From assembly GCF_056746865.1 (NCBI RefSeq), contig NZ_CM163382.1: a stretch of 64,000 bases of DNA; one strand, 5' to 3'. The position numbers are program-made. How positions within the stretch are numbered: the stretch's first letter is position 1; each line of letters begins with the position of its first letter. Below, piece after piece: positions 50,101 through 53,100 of this stretch.

Positions 50101-53100
50101 TTGCTATGTAAACATTCCCAGAAGACATCTTCATGTTGAATATGACACCCTTATTGACTACACCCCTCTGACAGAATTTTCAGAGGGGTTTTTTTATCAG
50201 TTTCACCATCCAACCCTGTACGCCAGAATGGTTTCACTGTCACTCAGTTCTGCTATTGCCTTTTTCATCTCCCTTTACCTTACGTTCTGCCAGAGTCTGA
50301 GCCATTTGAACAGGAGGTTATCATTGATATCGTGTTCCCGGGCAATACGGGCAACAGAGGCTCCTGGTTGCAAAACCAGTTTAACCATTTGAAGTTTAAC
50401 TCATTTGAAAATGATCTGCGGGGTTCTGCGGATAATGTTTTTGCTCCATAACAGGCGTCCACCAGTTTTGATACCACAGTTGAACGATAAACAGAAACCT
50501 GCTGATAAAACACCGTGGCGACATGACAAAACGCCAGAGCAAAAACCGTAAGCGCATTATTCGTCTTGTGGAACTCTGGCCTGAGTCATTCAACCGGGAA
50601 AAAAACAAAACCACTTAAAGTGGGGATACCTGACGACCTGATACAGGATATCGCCATCCGAGAACTGGCGTTTGGCGCTGGTACATTACATGCAGCAGTG
50701 GCGTCTTATGTGCAGTCTCCGCGCTATTACCGTGCGTTAATAGCAGGTGGCGCCCGTTACAACCTGAACGGTCAGCCGTGCGGGGAAGTGACACCACAGG
50801 AACAGAAAGAGGCAGAGACCCGTTTAATGATGCTGAATGACCGACGAAAAGCCAGAAAACCTCGTTGACTGCACAACTGCGCTGATTCACTGAGCTGTAA
50901 TCAATGTACAGCGCTGTACCGGACGATGGGTAATGGCGATCACAACCGGTAACCCCAGAGACAATGCGACTGTTTTTAACGCAACATACTGGCCAGATGT
51001 ATCACCCCGGACGACCTGAAAACGCTTTTCCACCCGGCATTGTCCGCCAGCGCTTATCACCTGCCAAGTCTGTTGTAGTAAATCCACCAGTTGTGAACAT
51101 TCTTCATCAACTGTCACACTGGCTCGCGGATGGCAGAAAAGCTCCTGGCTGAACAGCAACAGGCATCGTATTGTTGCTCCTCCATGTTGTTCCCGCAACC
51201 AGCGTAATACCACCGGCGAGGATGGGCTGGCCGTGTGATTACGCTCAGTAATACGTTCGTGCACCTGTCGGTAAAAGGAAGTACAGAATGCATGAATCTG
51301 TTGCCCGTTGATGTTTCCTTCTGCCGAATAGAGCGTGAAGTGAAATGCCAACAGATTTGGCCAGTGGTCCACCGCCTGCTGAACAAAACGCCGGATGTCT
51401 CCCGGCTCTGAAATTAAGGCTTTGGTTATTTGCACGAAATGTTCCTTTTCAAACCCTGTTGAATTTTGTTAAGCCAGTGCAGACACGCAGGAAAGCACGC
51501 CAGCACCGGTGTAATGCCAGTTATAATCAATAAGAATGGAATGACGAATCAGTCAGGAAGAGCTACAACCTGCTGGCTGACTGGAGAATGTCTGCAAGAA
51601 GATGAACGTAAATGTCGCCAGCACCAGGGACAGGGCTGATTTCCACAATACCAACGCTGGTATTTTGCACATTGCCAGCGTACCGGCATTACAACACGTT
51701 TCATGCTGCTGCCCCTCGTGATGCCTCGATTCGATGCTGCATCCACTGCTCCACTTCACTTTTGTACCAGCGGCTGCTGCGCCCCAGTTTGATGGGTTTA
51801 GGGAAATGGCCTTCACTGATCAGCTTGTAAAACCATTTGTCGGTCATACCAGTGAAGCTGGTGATGTAGTTCATGTCGATCAGGGGATCGTCGGCACGCA
51901 GCAATACGCTGTCGTGACCTGTCATTGAGGTCAACATGGTCAGAATGTCCTCTGTGAGATTTATGAATGTTGGGCAAATGCGGGTGAATCTGCTGAGCTG
52001 AGCTTTCAGAGCTGGCCTGCTACGGGATACCAGGGATTACCGGCGAGGTAACGGGCTTCCGGATCGCGCACACCACGACGATCGCGGGCGAAATCACTGA
52101 ACGCCCAGATAAGGTCCTGAAACAGGGCTTCGCAGTCCGGTGACCGGCGATCCAGTACCACATCCCGGGTGATCTGTTTCTGGTACGGTGCCGCTTCACC
52201 CGGTGACGCGAAGCCCAGTACGTTGCTCCAGGCATCCAGAATCAGCCGGTCCAGTTCAGGGCCATCGAAATACTCCTGTCTGACGCATAACACCACGTGG
52301 TATTCCGGTTTTTCAGGATGACGGGTCAGGAGCCAGCAGAGGTCACGTCCGGGTGTTGCATTCATCAGCGCACTGACGGTTTCGATAAAATCCATACCGA
52401 ACCAGATTTTTCTGTCACTGAAGGCGTTGTCATGTTCCCACGGCAGACGAAGCAGGATCCGCCGTACCCGGGAGCAGGACTGTTCACGCAGCGCACGGTT
52501 GAGAACACCGATGATTTTGTTCTGATAAGACGGCCAGAAGGGCGCCAGGCTATAGTCGAAATGAGGGATACCATTCATAAGATATGCTCCATATGGAAAC
52601 GCACGACGCATCCCCGCCAGCGAAAGACGAGCGTATGGTGAAACTGAAGGCGTCGTGTACTGAGATTGTTGATGTGATAACCGTGGAACCGGGGATGGCA
52701 GATGTCGTATGCCAGGACAGTCAGGAGACCAGACAGGTGTAAAATTCCTGAGGTGGGTTTAAGGTGAATGATCTCCGTTGACTTCAGTTCACATCATTAA
52801 TCAGGGCGGTAGATTTTTACCGACGGAGTGTTTCCAGGAGCGGAGGCTCAGGCCTTAAGCTTCAGAAGTGAGGCTTACGAGGACGCCCTGCAGCAGGACG
52901 CTCAGGAACTTCACTGCAGCCGTAGGCACACAGCCCGTCTTTTTGCTCTTCTTTCGCCAGATAATGCAGGGCACCGCGAATATTATCGATGCTTTCAGGA
53001 TCGTTGTGGCGCACAGGAATGTTGATGTTGTATGTATAATGCGGCTGATATGTACAGCGGTGTGCCGAACCGCTGTTATGCGTAATAGACTGCCAGCATT

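What the first reader, a model, noticed from the sequence alone, without database searches (positions are those of the whole stretch)
50523..50868. FinO/ProQ-like RNA chaperone gene interrupted by a homopolymer frameshift
The ProQ/FinO-like domain is split between two frames at an A7 run (50599-50605); removing one A restores a ~114-aa ORF. This is either recent inactivation, a sequencing error at a homopolymer, or a slippage-regulated gene.
Basis: seen in the sequence. Interest (0 to 1): 0.4.

Follow-up and report, generated by a model that had tools for sequence, protein, structure and literature searches.

The report
Decayed island-borne ProQ/FinO pseudogene
This is an ordinary, already-annotated dead copy of an RNA-chaperone-like (ProQ/FinO) gene in an Escherichia coli genomic island: it carries three separate lesions, and the extra A is a real allele found in hundreds of genomes, not a sequencing error or a regulatory switch.

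Summary
An A7 run at 50599-50605 splits a ProQ/FinO domain between ORF 50523-50618 and the +1-frame ORF ending at 50868. Deleting one A gives a 114-aa ORF (Pfam PF04352, E=2e-21).

The interpretation needs correcting in three ways.

1. It is not a sequencing error. The exact A7 sequence occurs in 347 of 5426 complete E. coli genomes. A6 occurs in 2, and A8 and A9 in none. RefSeq already annotates the A7 copies as "ProQ/FINO family protein, frameshifted".

2. It is not the only lesion. Intact relatives are 158-185 aa. Homology to them lies in three frames in the window, because a 2-bp deletion (CATATG to CATG at 50522-50525) came before the A insertion. A ~1.6-kb deletion (junction 50468/50470) also removed the first ~37 codons and the native upstream region. 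The "restored" 114-aa ORF is therefore itself a truncated form.

3. Slippage regulation is unsupported. All diverged homologues have an uninterrupted A5-CC (Pro codon) at this site. A C-to-A change made A6, which then became A7. A7 is below the ~9-nt range for efficient transcriptional slippage, and there is no +1-frameshift stimulator.

Verdict: an eroding mobile-element gene, already known, of low interest.

The parts
50470..50524 (+). Remnant of the N-terminal extension of the ancestral ProQ/FinO-like protein (residues 38-55, IPQLNDKQKPADKTPWRH). It lies in a different frame from the rest of the gene.
   Evidence: tblastn of the intact 168-aa homologue P0017 gives 18/18 identities in frame +2. 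See also the alignments.
50522..50525 (+). Site of a 2-bp (AT) deletion, ancestral CATATG to CATG. This is the older frameshift. It uncouples the N-terminal extension from the FinO domain and leaves the internal Met codon (ATG 50523-50525) as the only possible start.
   Evidence: DNA alignment with the intact genes L011 (P0017) and L018 (NCTC86, WP_001522303.1), which read ACATATGACA. The deletion is shared by all A6 and A7 alleles, and by L017, which still has the ancestral A5-CC tract.
50523..50618 (+). Upstream fragment, 31 codons, encoding the start of the FinO domain (first helix). It ends at a TAA that the extra A brings into frame.
   Evidence: tblastn to P0017 residues 56-84 gives 86% identity in frame +3.
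50599..50605 (+). The A7 homopolymer, a +1 insertion relative to the A6 allele. The ancestral state in intact homologues is GGGAAAAACCAAAACC (A5 followed by Pro codon CCA). A C-to-A change (Pro to Thr) made A6, and then an A was added.
50606..50868 (+). Downstream fragment in the +1 frame, holding the rest of the FinO domain (PLKVGI motif through the basic C-terminal tail). The stop codon TGA is at 50866-50868.
   Evidence: Pfam ProQ 62.9 bits on the 100-aa ORF. tblastn to P0017 residues 60-167. PDB alignments.
50468..50470 (.). Junction of a ~1.6-kb deletion relative to related loci (L001, L005, L016). The deletion removed a transketolase fragment, an IS1 pseudogene, the native upstream region and about 37 N-terminal codons of the ProQ-like gene. 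L002 has the same junction.
   Evidence: blastn of the window against the loci: 49339-50468 and 50470 onwards are adjacent here but about 1.6 kb apart elsewhere. Alignment. Annotations.
50275..50388 (-). Fragment of an IS transposase (HTH_Tnp_1 domain) that now abuts the truncated gene. RefSeq annotates the equivalent stretch as a frameshifted, incomplete transposase.
   Evidence: Pfam PF01527, E=1e-9. PGAP annotation in L002.
50887..51435 (-). Convergent neighbour, a 182-aa UCP030791-family 'putative phage-derived' protein. It is a constant partner of the ProQ-like gene in these islands.
   Evidence: Precomputed PF27752 on identical or near-identical products in L006, L009 and L011. PGAP names. 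My own Pfam scan found no family for it.
51701..51937 (-). AlpA-family helix-turn-helix regulator, part of the conserved island module ProQ-like / UCP030791 / AlpA / hypothetical / YagK-YfjJ.
   Evidence: Pfam PF05930, E=2e-10. The same gene order appears.

Best explanation
The stretch 50470-50868 is a non-functional remnant (pseudogene) of a ProQ/FinO-domain gene. This gene family belongs to CP4-57-like genomic islands of E. coli, which also carry AlpA, YagK/YfjJ and YfjI genes.

Intact relatives encode 158-185-aa proteins with three parts: a poorly conserved basic N-terminal extension, one FinO domain and a short basic tail. By analogy with FinO, FopA, RocC and ProQ, these proteins presumably bind structured RNAs of the element. 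That function is inferred and was not tested here.

In this lineage the gene decayed stepwise:
1. A 2-bp deletion in an ATAT repeat (CATATG to CATG) uncoupled the N-terminal extension.
2. A C-to-A substitution turned A5-CCA into an A6 run.
3. Replication slippage added one A (A7). This splits the FinO domain after its first helix and terminates translation at 50616-50618.
4. In the window's own lineage, a ~1.6-kb deletion removed the first ~37 codons and the native upstream region and joined the gene to an IS fragment.

Steps 1-4 are shown directly by sequence comparison. The order of steps 1 to 3 follows from which alleles share which lesion. The pseudogene is carried passively as the island recombines and spreads, which explains why the identical A7 allele is so common.
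For: - Homology to the intact 168-aa P0017 lies in three frames, and residues 1-37 are absent.
- Intact homologues read CATATG and GGGAAAAACCAAAACC. The window's allele group reads CATG and A6, A7 or A9.
- L017 has the 2-bp deletion with the ancestral A5-CC tract and is already called frameshifted by PGAP, so the 2-bp deletion is the older lesion.
- Exact A7 occurs in 347 complete genomes, against A6 in 2, A8 in 0 and A9 in 0.
- PGAP annotates the A7 copies as a frameshifted pseudogene.
- Other copies show further independent erosion. An ISEc22 insertion cuts the A7 allele in L019, and the 1.6-kb deletion occurs in the window and L002.
- The simple scan found no sigma-70-like promoter site on the + strand upstream, and it found two terminator-like hairpins upstream at 50162-50189 and 50414-50433.
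- The surroundings are IS-riddled, with several transposase genes and fragments.
- The literature already describes erosion of FinO/ProQ homologues once integrated in chromosomes (PMC9977716).
Against: - The downstream 263 nt remain open and nearly invariant (99.2-100% identical) across island backgrounds whose neighbouring gene differs by 6-11%. This could hint at constraint. It is equally expected from recent recombinational spread, and from my having picked the loci by this very segment.
- A6 and A7 both occur on at least two near-identical backgrounds: window versus L006/L009, and L002/L016 versus L003. The tract has therefore changed more than once, or has been moved by gene conversion.
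- Frame-restoring variants exist in draft assemblies: P0006, P0007 and the A9 allele P0023. Protein databases are biased towards such open forms.
- No expression data are available, so low-level leaky translation cannot be excluded.
Confidence: 0.9

Rival explanations
1. Sequencing or assembly error at a homopolymer: the source genome really has A6 and encodes the 114-aa ORF.
For: Homopolymers are error-prone in long-read assemblies. The A6 allele exists: P0001 on about 12 contigs, plus L003 and L004. The closest right-flank relatives of the window (L006, L009, L010) carry A6.
Against: The identical A7 sequence is in 347 complete genomes from many laboratories, against 2 with A6. L002, which shares the window's 1.6-kb deletion junction, also has A7. 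Even if the true state were A6, the gene would still carry the 2-bp frameshift and the 5' deletion.
Confidence: 0.02
2. A slippage-controlled gene. Either (a) a phase-variable contingency locus switching A6/A7 at the DNA level, or (b) recoding of A7 mRNA. Recoding would be by transcriptional slippage or by +1 ribosomal frameshifting of tRNA-Lys on A-AAA-A, yielding the 114-aa FinO-domain protein at a set low level.
For: A6, A7 and A9 variants all exist, and A6/A7 are polymorphic on near-identical backgrounds. The +1 frame is open from 50527, so a shift anywhere in about 30 codons would give a long product. A +1 shift on AAA-A would yield exactly the A6 product (read directly from the sequence). 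Non-programmed frameshift suppression of 1-10% has been measured in E. coli for -1 events (PMC10861913), and low-level pseudogene expression is reported in Salmonella (PMC9122581).
Against: - The shift is not conserved. Every diverged homologue (65-90% identity; E. coli, Salmonella, Citrobacter) has an uninterrupted ORF with a Pro codon breaking the run.
- Tract lengths are strongly skewed, 347:2:0:0, and not mixed as in contingency loci.
- A7 is below the ~9-nt range (PMC1088944).
- E. coli transcript slippage at A/T runs is mostly a +1 insertion, which gives A8 and does not restore the frame. Deletions rarely start in homopolymers, and no frame restoration was seen transcriptome-wide (PMC5574713).
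- The A-site codon after the shift-prone AAA is AAC, a sense codon and not a stop codon as at the prfB shift site. No strong Shine-Dalgarno-like stimulator lies upstream (read directly from the sequence).
- The window copy lacks its native 5' region, and the scan found no promoter-like site.
Confidence: 0.04
3. The downstream ORF is translated on its own from an internal start (TTG 50566 or GTG 50621) to give a shortened but functional FinO-domain protein.
For: Gene callers do predict such ORFs: P0074 at 82 aa and P0096. The 100-aa ORF still scores 62.9 bits against Pfam ProQ.
Against: The product would lack the first helix of the domain; profile positions 1-22 are missing. No Shine-Dalgarno-like sequence precedes either start (read directly from the sequence). 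No homologue begins there unless it is frameshifted.
Confidence: 0.02

Closest known systems
RefSeq/PGAP pseudogene 'ProQ/FINO family protein, frameshifted' in E. coli chromosomes (e.g. CQP61_RS32725 in NZ_CP033635.1, E2126_RS24560 in NZ_CP054388.1)
   Same: The sequence is identical (100% over 50470-50950) or 98.7% identical, with the same A7 tract and the same 2-bp deletion. E2126_RS24560 also has the same IS-fragment junction.
   Different: None of substance. The window is another copy of the same allele.
Intact island-borne ProQ/FinO family proteins of E. coli (158-185 aa; e.g. WP_001522303.1 of NCTC86, P0017, P0013, P0062)
   Same: Same gene family and same neighbourhood: a convergent UCP030791 gene, AlpA and YagK/YfjJ. 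Identity is 62-90% over the FinO domain.
   Different: These have one uninterrupted ORF with CATATG and an A5-CC tract. The window has lost residues 1-37 and is split over three frames.
Plasmid FinO (F-like plasmids), FopA (pCol1B9) and PcnR (IncI2): mobile-element FinO-domain RNA chaperones with N-terminal extensions
   Same: A single FinO domain preceded by a basic, probably disordered N-terminal extension, encoded on a mobile element. FinO structure 1dvo matches at E=5.6e-7, and NCBIfam FinO scores 50.5 bits. Plasmid FinO-like proteins have few, element-specific RNA targets (PMC9977716).
   Different: The NCBIfam FinO and ProQ scores are far below their cut-offs (50.5 vs 136; 51.8 vs 127), so it is neither FinO nor ProQ proper. 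It is chromosomal and island-borne. No partner antisense RNA was identified, with no Rfam hit in 44000-58000. The window copy is dead.
E. coli ProQ (global RNA chaperone), N-terminal FinO domain, PDB 5nb9
   Same: Best solved-structure match, E=9.3e-11, aligned over residues 8-110 of the restored ORF. The PLK(I/V)GI, RY and R-x-(D/N)-L-x-G segments are conserved.
   Different: There is no ProQ linker or Tudor-like C-terminal domain. It is an accessory-genome gene and is frameshifted.
Homopolymer-dependent recoding or phase variation (Thermus dnaX A9, Shigella mxiE T9, IS-element A-runs; contingency loci)
   Same: A reading-frame change at a run of A's. One frame-restoring tract length exists in the population.
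   Different: The run is only 7 nt. The shift is not conserved in homologues, tract lengths are not mixed, and the gene carries additional lesions (PMC1088944).

Membership tests
ProQ/FinO domain family (Pfam PF04352) | Significant match to the ProQ/FinO domain profile above the curated threshold | tested here: met
   The conceptual A6 translation scores 76.4 bits (cut-off 27), E=2e-21, over profile 5-107/109. The downstream fragment alone scores 62.9 bits.
ProQ/FinO domain family (Pfam PF04352) | Conservation of the segments that align with the RNA-binding face of solved FinO domains (PLKIGI, RY, R-x-DL-x-G of ProQ) | tested here: met
   phmmer alignment to 5nb9, 3mw6 and 7rgu: KPLKVGI, SPRYYRAL and GGARYNLNGQPCGEV align with the RPLKIGI, SSWRYLYG and GATRVDLDGNPCGEL segments of ProQ. 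Which residues contact RNA rests on my own knowledge of the ProQ literature and was not tested here.
ProQ/FinO domain family (Pfam PF04352) | An uninterrupted ORF able to produce the domain | tested here: not met
   The domain is split at A7, with a TAA stop at 50616-50618. The window therefore holds a pseudogene of the family and not a functional member.
ProQ/FinO domain family (Pfam PF04352) | RNA binding or chaperone activity | not testable with these tools
   No biochemical or CLIP data are available for this subfamily. Literature searches found no paper on it.
ProQ proper / FinO proper (NCBIfam NF003434, NF010317) | Score above the curated equivalog or subfamily cut-off | tested here: not met
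   51.8 bits against a cut-off of 127, and 50.5 against 136. It is a distinct island-borne subfamily.
Pseudogene (decaying mobile-element gene) | Intact homologues exist, and the copy has disabling lesions relative to them | tested here: met
   Three lesions relative to P0017/L011/L018: a 5' deletion, a 2-bp deletion and the +1 A. Other copies carry further independent lesions.
Programmed frameshift / transcriptional-slippage recoding site | The frameshift is conserved among diverged homologues | tested here: not met
   All full-length homologues down to about 65% identity have a single ORF, and the tract is interrupted by a Pro codon.
Programmed frameshift / transcriptional-slippage recoding site | A known slippery motif with a stimulator: an A/T run of about 9 nt for transcriptional slippage, or a stop or slowly decoded codon plus a Shine-Dalgarno-like element for a +1 shift | tested here: not met
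   The run is 7 nt. The codon after the shift-prone AAA is AAC, a sense codon. Only a weak CGGG lies upstream. Thresholds come from PMC1088944 and PMC5574713. The prfB-type requirements are from my own knowledge.
Programmed frameshift / transcriptional-slippage recoding site | A trans-frame protein product is detected | not testable with these tools
   No proteomic or ribosome-profiling data are available here.
Phase-variable contingency locus | Mixed tract lengths among closely related strains, in an otherwise intact and expressed gene | tested here: not met
   Exact-flank counts are A7 347, A6 2, A8 0 and A9 0. The gene is otherwise damaged. A6/A7 polymorphism on similar backgrounds does occur but is rare.

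The most novel reading that the evidence does not exclude
The A7 allele may be common for a reason other than hitch-hiking. One possibility is that losing the island's FinO-like RNA binder is advantageous, for instance by avoiding cross-talk with host ProQ or by de-repressing island genes. The other is that the A-AAA-AAC context permits a low, set level of +1 frameshifting, so that the allele is a 'pseudo-pseudogene' still supplying a little 114-aa FinO-domain protein. The unusually high conservation of the segment relative to its neighbours, and the recurrence of A6/A7 on different backgrounds, are compatible with this but do not require it.
Probability: 0.05. Interest if true: 0.45.

Novelty: already known. 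Interest (0 to 1): 0.08.

Why it matters
It matters little for biology. The window adds one more copy of a pseudogene that RefSeq already flags in hundreds of E. coli genomes, and it fits the published picture of FinO/ProQ homologues eroding after they settle in chromosomes (PMC9977716).

The useful outcomes are practical:
1. The frameshift should not be "corrected" as an assembly error.
2. The 114-aa A6 ORF should not be taken as the ancestral gene.
3. The intact 158-185-aa island-borne FinO-domain proteins (for example NCTC86 WP_001522303.1) are an apparently uncharacterised subfamily. They would be the right object for anyone wanting to study RNA control in CP4-57-like islands.

Tried and rejected
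- **Known RNA partner.** An Rfam gathering-threshold search of 44000-58000 found nothing, so no known sRNA or antisense partner could be linked to the gene.
- **Antisense terminator.** The scan flagged a terminator-like hairpin on the minus strand at 50623-50611, followed by the T-run that is the complement of the A tract. I considered an antisense RNA ending there. Its fold is no more stable than shuffled sequence (z=+0.82), and the palindrome is explained by the conserved P-L-K-V codons. Rejected.
- **Promoter.** The scan found no + strand sigma-70-like site upstream of the gene. This is a consensus scan only and is weak evidence.
- **Second copy in the window.** tblastn found none.
- **Compensating frameshifts.** I asked whether the 2-bp deletion and the +1 A cancel out. 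They do not: the net change is -1, and the N-extension frame hits a TAA at 50549-50551.
- **Literature.** Searches for this island-borne subfamily (FinO domain / AlpA / genomic island) returned only general reviews. One search failed on syntax.
- **dN/dS on A7 alleles.** Not attempted. The alleles are nearly identical (0-2 differences in 399 bp), so the test would have no power.
- **Caveat on the allele counts.** They use the best match per genome with a 93-96-nt probe. The roughly 85 other genomes in this allele group carry other alleles. The two sampled (L017, L018) have the ancestral A5-CC tract. A third sampled record, L019, carries the A7 allele cut by ISEc22, so its probe match is only partial.
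Full report
**1. The observation**

The window reads GGG-AAAAAAA-CAAAACC, with the seven A's at 50599-50605. 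ORF 50523..50618 encodes 31 aa. The +1 frame is open from 50527 to the TGA at 50866-50868. Removing one A gives a 114-aa ORF.

That ORF matches Pfam PF04352 (ProQ/FinO) at 76.4 bits against a cut-off of 27, E=2e-21, over profile positions 5-107 of 109. The downstream piece alone scores 62.9 bits. The restored protein is 100% identical to P0001, a database protein annotated in E. coli. It aligns across the shift site with the solved ProQ N-terminal domain (5nb9, E=9e-11) and with NMB1681, RocC and FinO.

An A7 run alone is unremarkable, since the window has 4 A7 and 38 A6 runs.

**2.

Intact relatives are 158-185 aa. They have a roughly 55-residue N-terminal extension (MVTLTINRKPQGIFSK...IPQLNDKQKPADKTPWRH) that runs directly into MTKRQRKNRK....

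tblastn of the intact 168-aa P0017 against the window places the homology in three frames:

| P0017 residues | Window coordinates | Frame |
|---|---|---|
| 1-37 | absent | none |
| 38-55 | 50471-50524 | +2 |
| 56-84 | 50523-50609 | +3 |
| remainder | to 50859 | +1 |

DNA alignments show why. Intact genes (L011, L018) read ACATATGACA where the window reads ACATGACA. This is a 2-bp deletion in an ATAT repeat.

Intact genes also read GGGAAAAACCAAAACC, which is A5 followed by a Pro codon. In the window's allele group a C-to-A change (Pro to Thr) created A6, and the window has A7.

Finally, 49339-50468 and 50470 onwards are adjacent in the window but about 1.6 kb apart in related loci. Those loci have a transketolase fragment, an IS1 pseudogene and the 5' end of the ProQ-like gene in between. 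The window shares this deletion junction with L002. The gene now abuts an IS transposase fragment.

**3. Order of events**

L017 (strain LS45) has the 2-bp deletion but still the ancestral A5-CC tract, and PGAP already calls it frameshifted. Every A6 and A7 allele has the 2-bp deletion.

The order is therefore the 2-bp deletion first, then the C-to-A change making A6, then A7. Lineage-specific damage followed: the 1.6-kb deletion here, and an ISEc22 insertion into an A7 copy in L019.

The A6 form is not the ancestral gene. In A6 genomes PGAP annotates a 114-aa CDS plus a separate overlapping 63-aa "hypothetical protein", which is the orphaned N-terminal extension.

**4. Sequencing error?**

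I used 93-96-nt probes that differ only in tract length. The table gives the number of complete E. coli genomes, out of 5426, with an exact match.

| Tract | Genomes with exact match |
|---|---|
| A7 | 347 |
| A6 | 2 |
| A8 | 0 |
| A9 | 0 |

The allele group is present in 434 genomes. The remainder carry other alleles. Of three records sampled from that remainder, L017 and L018 carry the ancestral A5-CC tract, and L019 is an A7 copy cut by ISEc22, so it matches the probe only in part.

The A7 genomes come from many laboratories, hosts and years, including SMS-3-5. One genome (ECCNB12-2) has two A7 loci with the same decayed left flank and one A6 locus.

A private sequencing error is effectively excluded. 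The 347 genomes are not independent, because many share a chromosomal position and probably a clone. Even so, the allele sits on at least three diverged island backgrounds.

**5. Slippage regulation?**

Several points count against it:

- **Conservation.** The shift is not conserved in any diverged homologue from E. coli, Salmonella or Citrobacter.
- **Tract lengths.** The distribution is extremely skewed, not mixed as in contingency loci.
- **Run length.** Seven A's is below the ~9-nt length at which selection against slippage-prone runs becomes evident in many bacterial genomes (PMC1088944).
- **Type of slippage.** In E. coli, transcript slippage at A/T runs is predominantly single-base insertion. 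That would give A8, which is still out of frame. Deletions rarely start in homopolymers, and no frame restoration of pseudogenes was seen (PMC5574713).
- **Ribosomal +1 shift.** A shift on AAA-A would give exactly the A6 product. However, the next codon is AAC, a sense codon, where the prfB shift site has a stop codon, and there is no strong Shine-Dalgarno-like stimulator. This last argument rests on the sequence itself and on my own knowledge of prfB-type sites.
- **Expression.** The window copy has lost its native 5' region. The simple scan finds no + strand promoter-like site and finds two terminator-like hairpins upstream.

Some points count in its favour:

- A6 and A7 both occur on near-identical backgrounds: window versus L006/L009/L010, and L002/L016 versus L003.
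- An A9 allele (P0023/L015) and compensated alleles (P0006/L014, P0007) exist in draft assemblies.
- Non-programmed frameshift suppression of 1-10% has been measured for -1 events in E. coli (PMC10861913).

These observations are what one expects of a mildly hypermutable homopolymer in a neutrally evolving, recombining sequence, seen through a protein database biased towards open forms. I put this rival at about 4%.

**6. Context and likely function of intact relatives**

The gene lies in an IS-riddled CP4-57-like island. A UCP030791-family gene is convergent to it (50887-51435). Beyond that lie AlpA (51701-51937), a hypothetical gene, YagK/YfjJ (52862-53428 and 57814-58545) and YfjI/DUF3987 (55025-56911). 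A YadA-like adhesin and several transposases lie to the left. The ProQ-like / UCP030791 / AlpA / hypothetical / YagK-YfjJ order recurs in every related locus.

In architecture the intact protein resembles plasmid FinO and FopA: a basic N-terminal extension followed by one FinO domain. It scores far below the NCBIfam cut-offs for FinO and ProQ proper. It is therefore a distinct subfamily and, as far as my searches show, an uncharacterised one. That it binds element-encoded structured RNAs is inference by analogy. No Rfam family was found nearby.

**7. Verdict**

This is a real feature that has been correctly seen but over-interpreted. It is a multiply damaged pseudogene of a mobile-element FinO-domain gene. 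RefSeq already annotates it as such, and it is consistent with published views on erosion of chromosomally integrated FinO/ProQ homologues (PMC9977716). Novelty: already known. Interest: low.

Noticed in passing
window 48224-48798: 5.8 copies of a 99-bp tandem repeat (98% matches) lie inside the YadA-like trimeric autotransporter adhesin ORF 47656..49476(-). The blastn pattern suggests the copy number differs from related loci (L005, L009), which would make it a length-variable stalk.
   Followed up: partly
window 49339-50470: A ~1.6-kb deletion relative to related E. coli loci has its junction at 50468/50470. It removed a transketolase fragment, an IS1 pseudogene and the 5' end of the ProQ-like gene. 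The same junction is present in NZ_CP054388.1 (L002).
   Followed up: yes
window 50470-51435 versus loci L001-L016: The ProQ-like segment is 99.2-100% identical in loci whose adjacent UCP030791 gene is only 89-94% identical. The island is therefore a recombination mosaic, or the neighbour gene is fast-evolving. The loci were chosen by the ProQ probe, so the contrast is partly a selection effect.
   Followed up: partly
window 50887-51435 (-): A 182-aa ORF convergent with the ProQ-like gene. PGAP names it a 'UCP030791 family putative phage-derived protein', and precomputed hits list PF27752, but my Pfam-A scan found no family for it. It is a constant partner of the ProQ-like gene, and its function is unknown.
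   Followed up: no
window 50162-50189 (+): A strong terminator-like hairpin (10-bp stem, 6 G-C pairs, followed by T7) lies within the stretch (49339-50468) that in related loci lies ~1.6 kb upstream of the ProQ-like gene. A weaker one is at 50414-50433.
   Followed up: no
window 52862-53428, 55025-56911, 57814-58545 (all -): Two YagK/YfjJ-family paralogues and a YfjI/DUF3987 gene mark a CP4-57-like island. Transposase genes lie at 46450-47568 and 59529-60545. ARAGORN found no tRNA gene anywhere in the 64-kb window.
   Followed up: partly
L014 (Logan ERR10499703) and protein P0007: Draft assemblies hold alleles in which a second 1-bp change restores a long ORF. In L014, A5 to A4 at the position equivalent to window ~50541-50545 compensates the 2-bp deletion. 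In P0007, the protein sequence implies a 1-bp deletion upstream that compensates A7. Whether these are real revertants or assembly errors is unknown.
   Followed up: no
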